Positions 34,797 to 53,902 are shown, numbered from the stretch's first letter. The stretch is DNA of 64,000 bases from Acidobacteriota bacterium (GCA_965222655.1 CBDCUP010000009.1:391991-455990), one strand, 5' to 3'. Notes: generated from the sequence alone by a model not told the origin. Numbers and translations: made by a program.

Positions 34797-34911
34797 GCGG
34801 TGGATGGTACTAAATTGCGGTCTCCGCTGGTTCCGGGATCCGGTTTTGATCCGGTTGGTTTATCCACAGATTCGTCGCTCCTACTACTTGTAAGTCTTCT
34901 ATTTGATGCCG

Positions 34912-35678
34912 CTGTGGAATCGGCGACCGAAGAGGCCGGAAATAGCGCCGCAACCGGCCTCGCTCAGGCCTCTACCCGCTCGCCTCGGGCAGGGCCGGAG
35001 CCCACGCGCATCCTGGTGGTGGACGACGACCCGCAGGCGCTCCGCTACGTTCGGAACGCTCTTTCAGCGGCCAACTACGCCCCGGCCGTAACGGGCGACC
35101 CGCAGGAGGTGGCCCGCCTCCTCAAGACGAAGAAGCCCCAGTTGGTCCTGCTGGACCTGCTGCTGCCCGGGACCGACGGAATCGAGTTGATGCAACGCGT
35201 CCCCGCGATGGCCGATCTGCCGGTCATCTTCATCTCCGGCTATGGAAGGGACGAGACGATCGCTCGGGCCCTGGAGACCGGAGCCGACGATTACATCGTC
35301 AAGCCCTTCTCGCCGACCGAGCTGGTCGCACGAGTCCAGGCGGCCCTGCGCCGGCGGGCCGGGCCCGAACCCTTCCTGCTGGGGGACCTGGGCATCCACT
35401 ACGAGCAACGCCGGGTGAGCATGGCCGGCCGGCCGGCGCAGCTGACGGCCACCGAATACGAGCTGCTCCGCGTGCTCTCGCTCAGCGCGGGACGGGTAGT
35501 GACCTACGATGCCCTCCTGCGCCAGGCGTGGAGCGGGCGGGAGTCCGGCGGCCCGAAGGTGGTGCGCGCCTTCGTGAAGACGCTCCGCCGCAAGCTGGGC
35601 GATGACGCGGCCCGGCCCGCCTACATCTTCAACGAGCGCGGGGTCGGCTACCGTATGGCCGAACCCGGCGGCCGGTGA
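34912..35678 (+). CDS. OmpR-family two-component response regulator (orphan, no kinase nearby)
   Basis: REC domain ILVVDDD...LLDLLLPGTDG...KPF and winged-helix trans_reg_C (LTATEYELLRVL...GVGYRM); start likely GTG about 34912; about 70% GC. Confidence 0.8.
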
Positions 35679-35868
35679 GGGCCCGCCTGGAAATTCATCA
35701 GCACGCATCCCGAGACGGAACACCATCAAAATAGCAAGTAGCTCCCCGCTCATGCTTCCTCTCAATCCGTTCTCTCCATTCTGTCACGCCCCCTAATTCC
35801 AGGTCGGTATCCCCAGCGTCTCCGCCAACCCTGCAAGGTTCACAGGCGGCTATGGAATCGTGCGGGGT

Positions 35869-36279
35869 ATGGCCCGCGAAATGGCATGGGTCCAGTTGTT
35901 TTGCCGAGGGTCGGGTTGCGGAGTGATGTTCTACATCTGCGGGAGCTGCTACCGGGGGCAGGTCTACTGCGGAGAGAGGTGCCGCCGCCGGATGAGACGC
36001 AACCAGATGCGGATTGCCAACCGGAAACACCAGGACAGCCCGGAAGGACGGCTCGATCACCGGGACCGGCAACGGGTCTACCGGGCAAAGCGCCGTCTCC
36101 GGCGCGTGACGGATCATACTTCCGCCCGCCGCCCCCGATCCGTCAACATCAAGGAACCATGGACAAAAACGCGAAGAAGGCCGCCCTTTGGGGAGGAATT
36201 TCAGCCTCGGCGGCGATTGAAGCGGCCCCAAGCCGCCATCCGGGCCGTTTGCATCGTGTGTGGCCGCATGCGGTGGTGA
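35869..36279 (+). CDS. Cysteine-rich zinc-ribbon protein, basic
   Basis: CRGSGCGVMFYICGSCYRGQVYCGERC and CIVCG clusters; Arg-rich. Confidence 0.4.
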   Translation: MAREMAWVQLFCRGSGCGVMFYICGSCYRGQVYCGERCRRRMRRNQMRIANRKHQDSPEGRLDHRDRQRVYRAKRRLRRVTDHTSARRPRSVNIKEPWTKTRRRPPFGEEFQPRRRLKRPQAAIRAVCIVCGRMRW

Positions 36280-36301
36280 TCGGCCCAGAGAGGGAGAAAC
36301 G

Positions 36302-36499
36302 ATGTTTTGGAAAAAGAAGAAGGACAAGGCGAAGGATGAATTGGTTTCAGTCGAGACGGAGGCGGAATTTCACGCGACGCTCAATAGCGGCGCTGACGTG
36401 GAACTCACGCATGAACTCGCTGAGAAAATCGGCTTGATGGTTGAGGATGTGGGAACCCTCGAAGATATCAAGGCCGCGAAATTCGATCCCTACAACTGA
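36302..36499 (+). CDS. Small hypothetical protein (65 aa)
   Basis: MFWKKKKDKAKDE... ORF between Zn-ribbon gene and ardC. Confidence 0.3.
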   Translation: MFWKKKKDKAKDELVSVETEAEFHATLNSGADVELTHELAEKIGLMVEDVGTLEDIKAAKFDPYN

Positions 36500-36519
36500 G
36501 GCAACCGGAGGGAGGCGAC

Positions 36520-51229: not shown

Positions 51230-52194
51230 GCAACGCGGCCAGTGGGCTGGCACACCTGAAACCTTTTTTGCCGGGGCTTGAACCCCTGCTGGAAGACGCG
51301 GAAGTGTCCGAGATCATGATTAACGGTCCCGGCAATGTTTGGATCGAGGCTAAGGGCCGGTTAACGGCTCATGCAGCGCCAGGGCTGGACGAATCGGCCT
51401 TGTTACGGGCGGCTATTCACATCGCCCGGCCTTTGGGCCTGGACCCCGCTTCAAATCCGATCATAGACGCCCGCCTGGATGATGGTTCCCGCGTGGCGAT
51501 CTGTGTTCCCCCGGCCAGCCCCCACGTTGCCATCACCATCCGGCGATTCGGCAAGCGGACCTTCAGCGCGGCGGATCTGGTCGAACAGAAAGCCCTACCG
51601 GAAAACGTCTTGAAAGCGGCGGAGCAGGTGTTGATGTCCCGCCGCAACATTCTGGTTTCCGGTGGGACCGGATCAGGCAAGACCACCTTGCTCAATGCCC
51701 TCATAGAACTACTACCCGTTGACGAGCGCATTGTGGCCATCGAGGACACGCTGGAGCTTCGCATCGGCCACTCGAATTGTGTCCGGTTTGAGGCCAGGGG
51801 CCTACAAGAGGGCGCGGTGACGATCCGCGATCTAGTACGCCATGCCTTGAGGCATCGACCGGATCATATCGTGGTGGGCGAGGTTCGAGGCGGCGAGGCG
51901 GCGGATCTACTGCAAGCTCTCAATACCGGACACGGTGGCTCACTCACGACCGTACACGCCAACAACGCGGAGAGCGCCCTGTCACGGCTTGCCAGTTGCG
52001 CCATGCAGGGCGGCGGGGAGTTGCCGTGGGAGGTGACTTGCCGGGGCGTGGTGGATGGGATTGCGATGGTAATTCACATGACGCGCCGGGAGGGACGGCG
52101 CTTTGTCGAGGAAGCCGCTTTTGTCAGTGGCTACGATGCGGGCCAGAACCAATGGGACATTGAGAGAATCACGGAGCGGGAGCTTCAACAATGA
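51226..52194 (+). CDS. virB11: T4SS ATPase VirB11/TrbB
   Basis: VSGGTGSGKTT Walker A, IVVGEVRGGEA, hexameric secretion ATPase family; ATGA overlap with virD4. Confidence 0.85.
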   Translation: MSNAASGLAHLKPFLPGLEPLLEDAEVSEIMINGPGNVWIEAKGRLTAHAAPGLDESALLRAAIHIARPLGLDPASNPIIDARLDDGSRVAICVPPASPHVAITIRRFGKRTFSAADLVEQKALPENVLKAAEQVLMSRRNILVSGGTGSGKTTLLNALIELLPVDERIVAIEDTLELRIGHSNCVRFEARGLQEGAVTIRDLVRHALRHRPDHIVVGEVRGGEAADLLQALNTGHGGSLTTVHANNAESALSRLASCAMQGGGELPWEVTCRGVVDGIAMVIHMTRREGRRFVEEAAFVSGYDAGQNQWDIERITERELQQ

Positions 52195-52631
52195 AAATAC
52201 ACTCCACAGGTAAGCTGATCGGGTTGGGCATTTTGATCGCCGGGATCGCGTCGTTTATCACGAGCGCCCAAATCGATCCGATCACGGCCCGCGTCGAGCG
52301 CGTGATTGATGGAGATACCATTCAGGTTCGTTTCGAGGGTAACAGCTACACCGTGCGGCTCATCGGAGTGGACACCCCGGAGACGAAACACCCCACCCAA
52401 ACGGTCGAGTACTTCGGGCGCGAGGCCAGCGCCTTCACCAAGGCGCATCTCGAAGGCAAGACAGTTGCTCTCGTAAGGGATCGCACCGGGGATACCGCCG
52501 ACCGCTACGGTCGCTGGCTCCGCTACGTCTACCTGGACGGAGACAACTTCAACGCCCGGCTCATCCGCGAGGGCTCCGAGAGGGCGAATCTTAGAAATAT
52601 AGATGATTTTAGTAGAAAACCCAAACACTAA
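52191..52631 (+). CDS. nuc: Secreted thermonuclease (staphylococcal-nuclease-like), as in pKM101 nuc
   Basis: Signal/TM, IDGDTI...RLIGVDTPE...RYGR SNase motifs; ATGA overlap with virB11. Confidence 0.8.
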   Translation: MKIHSTGKLIGLGILIAGIASFITSAQIDPITARVERVIDGDTIQVRFEGNSYTVRLIGVDTPETKHPTQTVEYFGREASAFTKAHLEGKTVALVRDRTGDTADRYGRWLRYVYLDGDNFNARLIREGSERANLRNIDDFSRKPKH

Positions 52632-52668
52632 GCCAGAGGCGTTTGACAGTGCTTCTCGGGCGGGCATA

Positions 52669-52995
52669 ATGACTGTTGAGGAGGTCGCTCAGTTTCTGCA
52701 TATGAGCCCGGGTTGGGTTTACAAACACTCGCATGAACTGGGCGCTGTGAAACTCGGGGGTTCTCTATTTTTCCCGAATAAGGAGGACCTCTATGAGTGT
52801 TTATTCAATAAAGGGCAAAGGCTGGAGGTACGATTTCACCCTCAAGGGCGAGAGGTACACTCAGGCTTGGTTCCCAACCAAAACGAAGGCCAAACAGGCA
52901 GAAGCAGAAACAAGAAAGGAGGTATTAGCACCACAGAAGAAAACTCAGACCCCAACCGACATGAACTTCTTGGAGTTGGTAAATCGGAAACTTGA
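52669..52995 (+). CDS. xis: Excisionase/Xis-like HTH (HTH_17/AlpA-type); 3' extent uncertain, overlaps integrase start
   Basis: MTVEEVAQFLHMSPGWVYKHSHELGAVKLGGSLFFPNKEDLYECL matches phage excisionase winged helix. Confidence 0.45.
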   Translation: MTVEEVAQFLHMSPGWVYKHSHELGAVKLGGSLFFPNKEDLYECLFNKGQRLEVRFHPQGREVHSGLVPNQNEGQTGRSRNKKGGISTTEENSDPNRHELLGVGKSET

Positions 52996-53892
52996 TGATG
53001 TAGAGGCTCGAAACAGCCTCAGATACTACAAGGACTTTCAATACATGGCGAGGCGATGGGCTCAGCTTTGGGGCGAGTTGAACTGTAGGCAGATAACCCG
53101 GGAAATGATCGAGCAGTTTGTCAAAAGACGGAAAAAGCAGGTTTCAGCACGCACCGCAAATAAGGAAATCCGCTATCTACGCTCAGTCTTTAACTTCGGG
53201 AAGAAAAAAAGTTGGCTGAGCACCAGCCCGGTTGATGGGATTGACTTCTTCTCGGTGGACAAACAGATACGGTACATCCCGACTGCTGAAGATGTGGAGA
53301 AAATCATCCTCCACGCTCGATCTGACAAGTGGTTGATGGCGCGGTATCCTGATGCTCCTGATTATCTTGAGACTTTGAGAGACACACTGGGACGCATAAG
53401 TGAGATCAATAGGTTGAAATGGGACGACGTGAACCTGGAAGAGAGATACTTAATCCTCTACACTCGCAAGATAGACGGGGGGCTTTCTCCCAGGAAGATC
53501 CCAATGACTCAAAGGCTGGACGAGATTCTTTCACTAAGGTATGCGCACAGAGACCCCAAAAAGCCTTGGGTGTTCTGGAATCCCCGTACGGGCCTACCCT
53601 ACAGAGATCGCAAGAGCATCATGAAGCGACTGTGTAAAGAAGCCAGAGTGCCGTACTTTCGTTTCCATTCACTGCGACATTCAAGTGCATCCCTCATGGA
53701 CAACAGCAACGTCCCAACGGGTGCGATCCAGAGAATCTTAGGCCATAGAAATCGGACCACGACGGAAATCTATCTGCACAGTCTGGGGGAAGGGGAAAGA
53801 GAAGCCATCGAAGCGTTCGAGGCCGTGAGAGAGGAAAAAGTCTCACACAGATCCACACACAGCGGTATGATGATTCCCCTGAAACCCTTGAT

Positions 53893-53902
<10 letters not shown>
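52793..53902 (+). CDS. int: Tyrosine recombinase/integrase of the conjugative element
   Basis: C-terminal R...HSLRHS...LGHRNRTTTEIYLH catalytic motifs; stop codon lies inside tRNA-Arg. Confidence 0.85.

What the first reader, a model, noticed from the sequence alone, without database searches (positions are those of the whole stretch)
34900..53902. About 19-kb high-GC integrative conjugative element with complete MPF-T T4SS in unusual gene order and translationally coupled
VirB2, B3, B4, B9, B10, B5, B6, B8, an unknown gene, D4 and B11 are all on one strand. Consecutive genes overlap by ATGA, GTGA or TGATG at B2/B3, B10/B5, B6/B8, D4/B11 and B11/nuc. The order differs from canonical Trb (B-C-D-E-J-L-F-G-I) and Vir operons, with B9 and B10 preceding B5, B6 and B8. 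No canonical relaxase (TraI, MobA or VirD2-type HUH or tyrosine) is recognisable. Only a replication-relaxation-like wHTH protein (47633-48565) precedes the candidate oriT. Cargo consists of a response regulator, ArdC, a methyltransferase and a nuclease.
Basis: partly seen in the sequence, partly recalled or inferred. Interest (0 to 1): 0.55.

Follow-up and report, generated by a model that had tools for sequence, protein, structure and literature searches.

The report
Acidobacterial conjugative element lacking canonical relaxase
This is the DNA-transfer machinery of a mobile element family that is very common in soil Acidobacteriota; it has no standard nicking enzyme (relaxase), and two uncharacterised DNA-binding proteins seem to fill that role, one of which co-varies with repeats in the probable transfer origin.

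Summary
The gene content is real. A single-strand operon encodes VirB2, B3, B4, B9, B10, B6, B8, VirD4 and B11 plus ArdC, a methyltransferase and a nuclease, with the reported start/stop overlaps. An excisionase, a tyrosine integrase and tRNA-Arg(TCT) end it on the right.

The 34900 left limit is wrong. A conserved 130-nt hairpin at 33909-34036 belongs to the backbone, the left side is IS-eroded, and no attL lies in the window.

The backbone is collinear in about 60 Acidobacteriota loci, on plasmid-like (RepA_C) and integrated (integrase + tRNA) forms. The "unusual" order is typical of the lineage: Granulicella plasmid pACIX903 (MPF_T, MOB_F) shares it.

No canonical relaxase occurs in the window or recurrently in relatives.

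The protein at 47633-48565 shows no Replic_Relax similarity. It belongs to a large family without a Pfam match. Its recognition-helix residues 47/49/52 co-vary with a 5-nt motif repeated five times in the conserved gap before virD4 (0 of 5000 permutations).

I read that gap as the transfer origin. This is a new variant of a known kind.

The parts
33909..34036 (+). Conserved ~130-nt imperfect hairpin. Candidate single-strand origin, ssDNA promoter or second cis site.
   Evidence: 16 copies in 13 loci at 74-88% identity. RNAalifold gives one long stem with 3 compensatory pairs. ssDNA fold z = -2.6. No Rfam family. In T4SS-less loci it lies next to u310 plus the oriT-like site.
35016..35678 (+). 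OmpR-type response regulator. Start uncertain. Window-specific cargo.
   Evidence: Response_reg plus Trans_reg_C. No homologue in related loci.
35886..36437 (+). u183, unknown protein, conserved in a few relatives.
   Evidence: No family hit. tblastn hits in L006, L043 and L046.
36520..37614 (+). ArdC-like protein (ssDNA-binding N-domain plus zincin protease). First gene of the conserved backbone.
   Evidence: ArdcN 5.9e-34, MPTase-PolyVal 2.2e-37. Conserved and collinear in relatives.
37624..38520 (+). u298: winged-helix protein with a PD-(D/E)XK-like nuclease domain. MOB_C-like relaxase candidate. Has a conserved C-terminal tail after a Gly run.
   Evidence: 8 of 26 homologues hit PF13814 Replic_Relax weakly, best E 0.007. 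Invariant H148, D149, P222, D223, E227, E240, K254, H262. AF2 C-domain pLDDT 85.5 with alpha-beta-beta-beta-alpha-beta core. Foldseek top 50 enriched in restriction-type nucleases, none significant.
38530..38853 (+). u107, small protein, conserved in the backbone.
   Evidence: Only a weak, sub-threshold Pfam hit to a holin family (E 0.0055). Collinear in relatives.
38892..39191 (+). VirB2/TrbC pilin.
   Evidence: PF04956 7.3e-15.
39191..39487 (+). VirB3.
   Evidence: PF05101 7.1e-08. TGATG overlap with virB2.
39624..40367 (+). N6/N4 DNA methyltransferase inserted between virB3 and virB4. Start uncertain.
   Evidence: PF01555 1.3e-35. Same insert only in L007 and L010.
40371..42797 (+). VirB4/TrbE ATPase.
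   Evidence: TIGR00929 9e-78 and TrbE 1.2e-73, both below the curated cut-offs. Best PLSDB relatives are at most 28.6% identical (best 28.1-28.6%); the strongest E-value (8e-50, 27.7% identity) is to an acidobacterial plasmid.
42803..43642 (+). VirB9.
   Evidence: CagX 1.2e-26.
43639..45030 (+). VirB10.
   Evidence: TrbI 1.1e-39. GTGA overlap with virB9.
45027..45947 (+). u306: secreted protein in the VirB5/TrbJ position.
   Evidence: No family or PDB sequence hit. Assigned by position before virB6 only. Conserved in relatives.
45958..46959 (+). VirB6/TrbL.
   Evidence: PF04610 9e-18.
46956..47636 (+). VirB8.
   Evidence: PF04335 1.2e-14.
47633..48565 (+). u310: winged-helix protein with a conserved alpha/beta domain. 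Sequence-specific partner of the repeats in the following gap.
   Evidence: 1883 clusters (50% identity) at E<=1e-3, no Pfam/NCBIfam/PDB sequence hit. AF2 pLDDT 89.8. N-domain matches MarR-type winged helices. Residues 47/49/52 co-vary with the DNA motif, 0 of 5000 permutations.
48566..48922 (+). Conserved non-coding region, oriT candidate. Five copies of an element-specific 5-nt motif (GGGCA here): reverse-complement copies at 48591 and 48615, forward copies at 48640, 48663 and 48812. Inverted repeat 48754-48769 / 48836-48851. Invariant block TCCCTGCGGGAAGG at 48860-48873.
   Evidence: Repeats. Same architecture in 30 close loci and in distant loci. Motif differs between elements but is the same within one. 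Outer IR arms show compensatory change in 60 loci with 17 arm pairs. No Rfam family.
48923..51229 (+). VirD4-type coupling protein.
   Evidence: TraG-D_C 7.1e-08, TrwB_AAD_bind 3.8e-07.
51226..52194 (+). VirB11 ATPase.
   Evidence: T2SSE 1e-48.
52191..52631 (+). Staphylococcal-nuclease-like protein, conserved after virB11 in many relatives.
   Evidence: SNase 4.9e-19. Present in many relatives.
52603..52995 (+). Excisionase-like HTH_17 protein.
   Evidence: PF12728 28.2 bits, cut-off 27. TIGR01764 E 8e-4. 95% identical in L036.
52793..53902 (+). Tyrosine integrase. Start at 52793 or 52961.
   Evidence: Phage_integrase 2.8e-24. 90% identical in L036, again followed by tRNA-Arg.
53893..53970 (+). 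tRNA-Arg(TCT), right junction (attR). Its first ~17 nt, including the D-loop, come from the element.
   Evidence: ARAGORN and Rfam 73 bits. Four-way comparison with element-free genomes L072/L074 and with L036.

Best explanation
Window ~33.9-53.9 kb is the conserved backbone of an integrated conjugative element. The element belongs to a family specific to Acidobacteriota.

Shown:
- It has an MPF_T-like T4SS whose gene order is typical of this lineage.
- It has a coupling protein, ArdC, a nuclease, and an excisionase/integrase pair.
- It sits at tRNA-Arg(TCT) and supplies the first ~17 nt of that tRNA.
- The same backbone occurs on RepA_C plasmid-like forms and on integrase-bearing islands at several different tRNA genes.
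- No canonical relaxase accompanies it.

Inferred mechanism:
- The 357-bp gap between u310 and virD4 is the origin of transfer.
- u310 binds it through the recognition helix of its winged helix. It reads five copies of an element-specific 5-nt motif. Four flank a G-run and one sits in a hairpin loop inside a conserved inverted repeat.
- This gives each co-resident element its own oriT specificity.
- Strand cleavage is done either by u298, a MOB_C-like winged-helix plus PD-(D/E)XK nuclease encoded next to ArdC, or by u310 itself.
- The nucleoprotein is then handed to the adjacent VirD4.
- The 130-nt hairpin may prime complementary-strand synthesis.
For: - T4SS, T4CP, ArdC, nuclease, integrase and excisionase assigned by Pfam/NCBIfam.
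- Collinear backbone in ~60 loci of Terriglobia, Bryobacterales and Acidiferrales MAGs, with up to 8 copies in one contig.
- Plasmid-like forms carry RepA_C plus ParA. Integrated forms carry an integrase plus a tRNA.
- The only recurrent accessory proteins of 250 aa or more near the backbone are integrases, RepA_C, methylases and transposases.
- u298: weak Replic_Relax hits, conserved H-D...PD...E...K residues, nuclease-type fold topology. PF13814 corresponds to MOB_C (PMC5357655). MOB_C relaxases combine a winged helix with a PD-(D/E)XK domain, and TraX binds five repeats away from nic (PMC12857230).
- u310: winged helix. The three columns most associated with the motif (47, 49, 52) all lie at the start of helix 48-60, about 800 bp from the motif. 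Residues nearer the motif are less associated. The same helix residues recur with the same motif in elements only 67-88% identical.
- The motif clusters only in this gap within the 64-kb window.
- The synteny virB8-u310-gap-virD4 and the site architecture persist down to 36-46% identity.
- IR arms show compensatory change.
- Intact u310 plus the site plus the hairpin occur without any T4SS genes (L008, L037).
Against: - No biochemical evidence exists.
- u298's Replic_Relax similarity is below threshold. Its Foldseek hits are not significant (best E 0.2).
- u310's C-terminal domain matches nothing known. It lacks a canonical PD-(D/E)XK motif and shows no profile similarity to u298's nuclease domain (probability 1%).
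- The invariant block TCCCTNCGGGAAGG lies ~12 nt before the virD4 start in distant relatives. It may be a ribosome-binding-site hairpin rather than a nic region.
- The whole gap does not fold better than shuffled sequence (z = -1.3).
- Motif-to-helix association could be partly inflated by linkage.
- This copy has no detectable attL and an IS-eroded left side, so it may no longer be mobile.
Confidence: 0.6

Rival explanations
1. u310 is a local transcriptional regulator, similar to an immunity repressor. The gap is the promoter/operator and translation-control region of virD4-virB11. The true oriT lies elsewhere, for example at the 130-nt hairpin, and is cut by u298.
For: The N-domain is MarR-like. 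The invariant block overlaps the probable virD4 ribosome-binding site in distant loci. The sites occur only in this gap. The hairpin is a second strongly conserved cis element.
Against: Intact u310 plus the site persist in loci that have lost virD4 and all T4SS genes (L008, L037). A 16-nt inverted repeat with compensatory change and a motif displayed in an internal hairpin loop is unusual for an operator. u310 carries a 200-aa conserved domain with an invariant Tyr, Asp and His.
Confidence: 0.18
2. u310 with its repeats is a replication module (initiator plus iterons, or a rolling-circle Rep plus double-strand origin). The 130-nt hairpin is the single-strand origin. The module maintains the excised element or plasmid rather than starting transfer.
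For: The repeats are iteron-like and element-specific. Compact u310-site-hairpin units exist. A distant homologue sits beside a RepB-type primase gene. From memory: rolling-circle plasmids pair a Rep/dso with a ~130-200-nt sso hairpin.
Against: u310 is translationally coupled to virB8 and always sits directly before the coupling protein gene, across 36-90% identity. Plasmid-like relatives carry a separate RepA_C initiator. The two roles are not exclusive, since relaxases of some ICEs also drive replication.
Confidence: 0.1
3. The family has no relaxase of its own. It is transferred by a relaxase supplied in trans, or the T4SS secretes proteins (for example the neighbouring ankyrin-repeat proteins) rather than DNA.
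For: No canonical relaxase in the window or in relatives. Ankyrin proteins lie at 30051-31175 and 32722-33552. MOB-less T4SSs are known (PMC3548315).
Against: The backbone carries ArdC, anti-restriction-type methylases, an integrase/excisionase or RepA_C, and spreads to many tRNA sites and plasmids in many copies. That is the behaviour of a self-transmissible element. The ankyrin genes are not conserved with the backbone.
Confidence: 0.08

Closest known systems
Granulicella tundricola plasmid pACIX903 conjugation region (PLSDB typing: conjugative, MPF_T, MOB_F)
   Same: Acidobacterial host. Same order: VirB3-VirB4-VirB9-VirB10-(unknowns)-VirB8, with the T4CP downstream and ArdC upstream. It gives the strongest PLSDB match (by E-value) to this VirB4.
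   Different: VirB4 is only 27.7% identical. VirB11 follows VirB8 directly. A canonical MobF relaxase follows the T4CP. No homologue of u298 or u310 exists anywhere in PLSDB.
MOB_C relaxases (TraX of pAD1, MobC of CloDF13; Pfam Replic_Relax PF13814)
   Same: An N-terminal winged helix plus a restriction-endonuclease-like domain. TraX binds five repeats at a distance from nic and forms no covalent adduct (PMC12857230). u298 has the domain layout and conserved acidic/Lys residues. The gap has five repeats.
   Different: u298 reaches PF13814 only below threshold. The repeat-reading protein here appears to be a second, unrelated protein, u310. So recognition and cleavage may be split between two proteins.
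Classical MPF_T systems (Ti VirB/VirD4, RP4 Trb)
   Same: The same set of core components by Pfam. Tight translational coupling.
   Different: Different gene order. All curated NCBIfam cut-offs are missed. No VirB1 or VirB7 recognised. No MOB_P/Q relaxase.
tRNA-targeting integrative elements with tyrosine integrases
   Same: Integrase and excisionase at one end, next to a tRNA gene. Many relatives use the usual 3'-end arrangement.
   Different: Here, and in L036, L042 and L057, the integrase gene abuts the 5' end of tRNA-Arg(TCT). For the window and L036 it was shown that the element supplies the first ~17 nt of the tRNA; for L042 and L057, which carry another integrase lineage, only the arrangement is seen. 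From memory, this is the rarer arrangement.

Membership tests
MPF_T type IV secretion system | VirB4 plus VirB2, B3, B6, B8, B9, B10 and B11 homologues in one locus | tested here: met
   Pfam hits for all of them.
MPF_T type IV secretion system | VirB4 falls in the MPF_T clade (CONJscan / phylogeny) | tested here: inconclusive
   Best NCBIfam models are VirB4_CagE and TrbE, below cut-off. The PLSDB match with the best E-value is typed MPF_T at 27.7% identity. No tree or CONJscan run.
Conjugative (DNA-transferring) T4SS | VirD4-type coupling protein | tested here: met
   TraG-D_C and TrwB_AAD_bind above gathering score.
Conjugative (DNA-transferring) T4SS | A relaxase of a recognised MOB family | tested here: not met
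   None of the roughly 60 window ORFs scanned, and no recurrent neighbour in 71 loci, hits a relaxase family above threshold. Only sub-threshold PF13814 for u298 homologues.
Integrative conjugative element | Integrase (plus excisionase) at an element end next to the target site | tested here: met
   Phage_integrase, HTH_17 and tRNA-Arg. The junction was mapped against element-free genomes.
Integrative conjugative element | Both ends (attL and attR repeats) identifiable | tested here: not met
   Only attR was found. The sole repeat of the tRNA (63079-63118) lies to the right and belongs to another island. The expected left flank (oxidoreductase plus tRNA 5' part) is absent from 1-53892.
MOB_C / Replic_Relax relaxase (for u298) | PF13814 match at or above gathering score | tested here: not met
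   0 hits for the window protein. 8 of 26 homologues hit at E 0.007 or weaker.
MOB_C / Replic_Relax relaxase (for u298) | PD-(D/E)XK fold with conserved acidic and Lys residues | tested here: inconclusive
   AF2 gives an alpha-beta-beta-beta-alpha-beta core. D223, E240 and K254 are invariant. About 23 of the top 50 Foldseek hits are restriction-type nucleases, but the best E is 0.2.
MOB_C / Replic_Relax relaxase (for u298) | Site-specific nicking at oriT | not testable with these tools
   Needs biochemistry.
   0 of 29 homologues hit PF13814. hhalign against u298 aligns only the winged helix. The C-domain comparison gives probability 1%.
HUH relaxases (MOB_F/P/Q/V) | Relaxase, TrwC, MobA_MobL or Mob_Pre domain | tested here: not met
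   No such hit in the window.

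The most novel reading that the evidence does not exclude
u310 defines a new, very large family of conjugative DNA-processing proteins. It combines a winged helix with a novel alpha/beta domain carrying an invariant Tyr87. With its cognate five-repeat site it would form a self-sufficient MOB module, making it a new relaxase class rather than an accessory factor. Its readable recognition code (helix residues 47/49/52 against a 5-nt motif) would set oriT specificity and keep many co-resident elements insulated from one another.
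Probability: 0.25. Interest if true: 0.85.

Novelty: new variant of a known kind. Interest (0 to 1): 0.62.

Why it matters
Acidobacteriota are among the most abundant soil bacteria, and how they conjugate is essentially unstudied. This backbone is present in many copies per genome and on plasmids. Relaxase-based tools (CONJscan, MOB typing) would nevertheless score it as lacking a relaxase, so such elements are probably under-counted.

Two testable leads come out of the analysis:
- A candidate non-HUH relaxosome made of two uncharacterised protein families.
- A protein-DNA specificity code that can be read directly from natural variation and tested by swapping three residues.

Tried and rejected
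- Megablast of the 19 kb against PLSDB gave no match. tblastn of u310 and u298 against PLSDB gave no match.
- PDB sequence and profile searches for u310, u298 and u306 found nothing meaningful.
- Foldseek with full-length u310 returned only winged-helix hits, plus one weak restriction-enzyme hit.
- Foldseek with the u298 C-domain gave no significant hit.
- Rfam found nothing at the hairpin or at the gap.
- The ssDNA folding energy of the gap is no better than shuffles.
- ARAGORN's tRNA-Thr inside virB2 was rejected, because Rfam does not confirm it.
- The search for an attL copy of the tRNA to the left, down to 9-mers, found none.
- The 5' half-tRNA at 63079 was considered as this element's second end. 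It was rejected because it carries the chromosomal flank and is present in genomes without the element.
- The idea that the integrase acts as the relaxase (MOB_M-like) was rejected as a general solution, because plasmid-like relatives lack it.
- Exact-protein look-ups to extend the left flank failed.
The first metagenome scan found nothing.
- The Francia 2013 TraX paper is not held.

Full report
**1. What is in the sequence**

Pfam and NCBIfam scans confirm a single + strand array. In order:
- response regulator (~35016-35678)
- u183
- ArdC (36520-37614)
- u298 (37624-38520)
- u107
- VirB2, VirB3
- an N6/N4 methyltransferase
- VirB4, VirB9, VirB10
- u306
- VirB6, VirB8
- u310 (47633-48565)
- a 357-bp gap
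- VirD4, VirB11
- an SNase-like nuclease
- an HTH_17 excisionase (52603-52995)
- a tyrosine integrase (52793-53902)

tRNA-Arg(TCT) follows at 53893-53970.

Two more exist, at B9/B10 and B8/u310.

GC is 0.59-0.64 across the array and 0.52-0.58 beside it.

'VirB5' (u306) is assigned only by position. VirB1 and VirB7 were not recognised.

The ORF at 48590-48907 lies inside conserved non-coding DNA.

**2. The element belongs to a large acidobacterial family**

u310 has 2663 scored relatives in the 90%-clustered database. The top 120 are more than 82% identical and none has a Pfam domain. It also has 1883 representatives at 50% clustering with E <= 1e-3.

A scan of one genome per species returned 62 loci. 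Almost all come from Acidobacteriota MAGs (Terriglobia, Bryobacterales, Acidiferrales), with up to eight copies in one 3-Mb contig.

tblastn with the window proteins shows the same order in nearly all loci, at 60-95% identity: ArdC-u298-u107-B2-B3-B4-B9-B10-u306-B6-B8-u310-gap-D4-B11(-nuc).

After VirB11 the loci divide into two forms:
- Plasmid-like forms carry RepA_C and ParA. Some lie on contigs of 31-78 kb.
- Integrated forms carry a tyrosine integrase next to a tRNA gene: Arg, Val, Pro, Cys or Gly.

JGI metagenome loci at only 36-46% u310 identity still keep virB6-virB8-u310-gap-virD4.

**3. The gene order is typical of the lineage**

This VirB4 is at most 28.6% identical to anything in PLSDB. 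Its strongest match by E-value (8e-50, 27.7% identity) is to plasmid pACIX903 of Granulicella tundricola. MOB-suite types that plasmid as conjugative, MPF_T, MOB_F.

Its annotated order is VirB3-VirB4-VirB9-VirB10-unknowns-VirB8-VirB11 ... T4CP-MobF, with ArdC upstream.

So B9/B10 preceding B5/B6/B8 is a trait of acidobacterial MPF_T systems. An earlier survey placed these basal in the MPF_T tree (PMC3548315).

The real difference in the present family is that MobF is absent and u310 sits between VirB8 and the T4CP.

**4. Ends of the element**

Genomes that carry the identical oxidoreductase (window 61815-63008) but not this element were recovered.

In L072 and L074 the order is:
- oxidoreductase
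- tRNA-Arg
- a 9-kb integrase/PolA/PrimPol element
- a 1333-bp repeat (oxidoreductase plus the 5' half of the tRNA)
- further island DNA

L073 lacks the 9-kb element.

Homology with the window begins exactly at tRNA base 1 (53893).

A four-way alignment shows two versions of the tRNA start:
- In the window and in L036 (another genome, 90%-identical integrase), the integrase stop and the first ~17 nt of the tRNA are element-derived. This includes a distinctive D-loop, GCCAGG or GCCCGG.
- Element-free genomes have a different upstream flank and the D-loop GCT-GG.

The element therefore recombined inside the tRNA gene and replaced its 5' part.

The 5' half-tRNA at 63079-63118 carries the chromosomal version and stops in the anticodon loop. 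It is present without the element, so it is the left junction of a different island.

No copy of the tRNA lies to the left in the window, and the expected left flank is absent.

On the left, the last conserved backbone feature is the hairpin at 33909-34036. Immediately beyond it lie an rve transposase remnant (33524-33838), further IS copies and ankyrin genes.

The left end is therefore unresolved. Either the inserted DNA exceeds 54 kb, or IS activity has rearranged it.

**5. No canonical relaxase, but one overlooked candidate**

None of the roughly 60 window ORFs scanned (80-1158 aa) hits a relaxase family.

Precomputed Pfam annotations of seven related contigs show none.

The recurrent proteins of 250 aa or more within 10 kb of u310 in 71 loci are integrases, RepA_C, methylases and transposases.

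u298, always encoded directly after ArdC, is very conserved. Its features:
- 8 of 26 homologues hit PF13814 Replic_Relax weakly, best E 0.007. This was the most frequent family.
- PF13814 is the MOB_C relaxase family (PMC5357655). MOB_C enzymes combine a winged helix with a PD-(D/E)XK domain (PMC12857230).
- Across two subfamilies down to 48% identity, H148, D149, P222, D223, E227, E240, K254 and H262 are invariant.
- An AlphaFold model of residues 126-286 (pLDDT 85.5) has the alpha-beta-beta-beta-alpha-beta core. D223 sits at strand 2, E240 in strand 3 and K254 in the next helix.
- Foldseek against the PDB gave no significant hit. About 23 of the top 50 are restriction-type nucleases: SwaI, EcoRI, MunI, BamHI, PaqCI, MspJI, R2 endonuclease, Dna2, AddB and FAN1.

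This is suggestive, not proof.

**6. u310 and the gap before virD4**

The AlphaFold model of u310 (pLDDT 89.8) has an N-terminal winged helix followed by an alpha/beta domain. Foldseek matches MarR-type regulators for the N-domain.

There is no Replic_Relax similarity. There is also no profile similarity to the u298 nuclease domain.

The gap (48566-48922) has a conserved architecture in 30 close loci and, in recognisable form, in distant ones. In order:
- two copies of a short motif in one orientation
- a G-run
- two copies in the other orientation
- a C-run/G-run mini-hairpin
- a fifth motif copy in the loop of an inner hairpin
- all of the last part enclosed by the inverted repeat AGCGNCCCC ... 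GGGGTCNCT
- the invariant block TCCCTNCGGGAAGG

The 5-nt motif differs between elements but is the same at all five places within one element. Variants seen are GGGCA (this window), TACCG, TGGCA, GAACA, TACCA, GGACA, TGACA, TCACA, TTCCA and CGGCA.

The outer arms of the inverted repeat change in a compensatory way. There are 60 loci and 17 arm pairs, mostly 6-8 of 8 complementary.

Among all 310 alignment columns of u310, the three most associated with the motif are 47, 49 and 52. They lie at the start of the recognition helix (residues 48-60 in the model).

Examples:
- TGGCA goes with D-R-K-x-A-L, both in L059 (88% identical to the window protein) and in L015, L028, L041 and L052 (67-70%).
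- GAACA goes with Q-R-M/I-T-A-S.
- TACCA goes with W-R-S-G-A-Q.
- Close relatives with different motifs differ at exactly these residues.

Permuting the motif labels never reached the observed agreement (0 of 5000).

Residues nearer the gap are less associated, which argues against simple linkage. u298 shows no such cluster.

The motif is concentrated only in this gap within the 64 kb.

**7. Interpretation**

The element must have a transfer origin. The only conserved non-coding elements in the backbone are this gap and the 130-nt hairpin.

The features of the gap fit an oriT with u310 as its specificity protein:
- its position directly before the coupling-protein gene
- the conserved inverted repeat
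- the five element-specific sites, which parallel the five repeats bound by the MOB_C relaxase TraX (PMC12857230)
- its survival with an intact u310 in loci that have lost all T4SS genes (L008, L037)

Whether u310 or u298 cuts the DNA cannot be decided here.

Caveats:
- The invariant block probably overlaps the virD4 ribosome-binding site in distant relatives.
- The gap as a whole is not unusually stable as ssDNA.
- Nothing here is biochemical.

The main rival is that u310 is a local repressor. A replication role is also possible and is not exclusive.

**8. Comparison with known systems, and verdict**

The T4SS is a divergent MPF_T-like system of the acidobacterial lineage. The integration module is ordinary, apart from replacing the tRNA's 5' part.

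The DNA-processing part does not meet the membership test for any MOB family. u298 works like, but cannot be filed as, MOB_C. u310 is an unclassified family.

I found no paper in the held library that describes this family.

I rate it a new variant of a known kind, with moderate to high interest because of the apparent recognition code and the scale of the family.

Noticed in passing
window 53971-61786: A separate ~9-kb integrative element lies on the 3' side of the same tRNA-Arg. It carries an integrase (54019-55092, minus strand), a small HTH protein, a family-A DNA polymerase (55911-57740) and a Prim-Pol (58463-60109). In relatives it is flanked by 1333-bp direct repeats made of the oxidoreductase gene plus the tRNA 5' half. 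It is absent from L073.
   Followed up: partly
window 63079-63118: A truncated 5' half of tRNA-Arg(TCT) ends in the anticodon loop and is followed by unrelated DNA. It is also present in genomes that lack both elements. It looks like the left junction of a third island that runs off the window. In L073 that island carries AbiE, SIR2 and HerA genes.
   Followed up: partly
window 33909-34036; L008 9867-9996 and 11710-11835; L037 11399-11523: A conserved 130-nt hairpin is found downstream of the nuclease gene in relatives. In T4SS-less loci it lies immediately beside u310 plus its site, and in L008 two inverted copies flank that unit. Its function is unknown. Candidates are a single-strand origin or an ssDNA promoter.
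   Followed up: partly
window 39624-40367; L007 ~1976; L010 ~2026: A DNA methyltransferase gene is inserted between virB3 and virB4 inside the T4SS operon, in three of the related elements only.
   Followed up: partly
L017 / L042 and L016 / L031 (same contigs): Two copies of the conjugation backbone face each other across a single tRNA-Arg(TCT) gene, one on its 5' side and one on its 3' side. One 3.0-Mb contig (CBDCKA010000002.1) holds eight copies.
   Followed up: no
window 38440-38520 (C-terminus of u298): After a glycine run, u298 homologues end in a conserved tail, R-D-x-x-S/A-x-E-L. It may be a signal for interaction with the coupling protein.
   Followed up: no
L069 and L070 (short metagenome contigs): A 33%-identical u310 homologue lies next to a RepB-type primase gene and, divergently, ArdC-like and u298-like genes. 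No T4SS gene is in view. The trio ArdC/u298/u310 therefore travels together outside this backbone.
   Followed up: no
window 30051-31175 and 32722-33552: Two ankyrin-repeat proteins sit among IS copies just left of the backbone. They are not conserved with the element.
   Followed up: no
window 3000-10000: A separate high-GC (0.59-0.67) island carries an IS66-family transposase (3872-5341) and a DruA-like Druantia protein (8818-9720, minus strand).
   Followed up: no
window 39065-39151: ARAGORN calls an 87-nt tRNA-Thr inside virB2. Rfam does not confirm it, so it is a false positive.
   Followed up: yes
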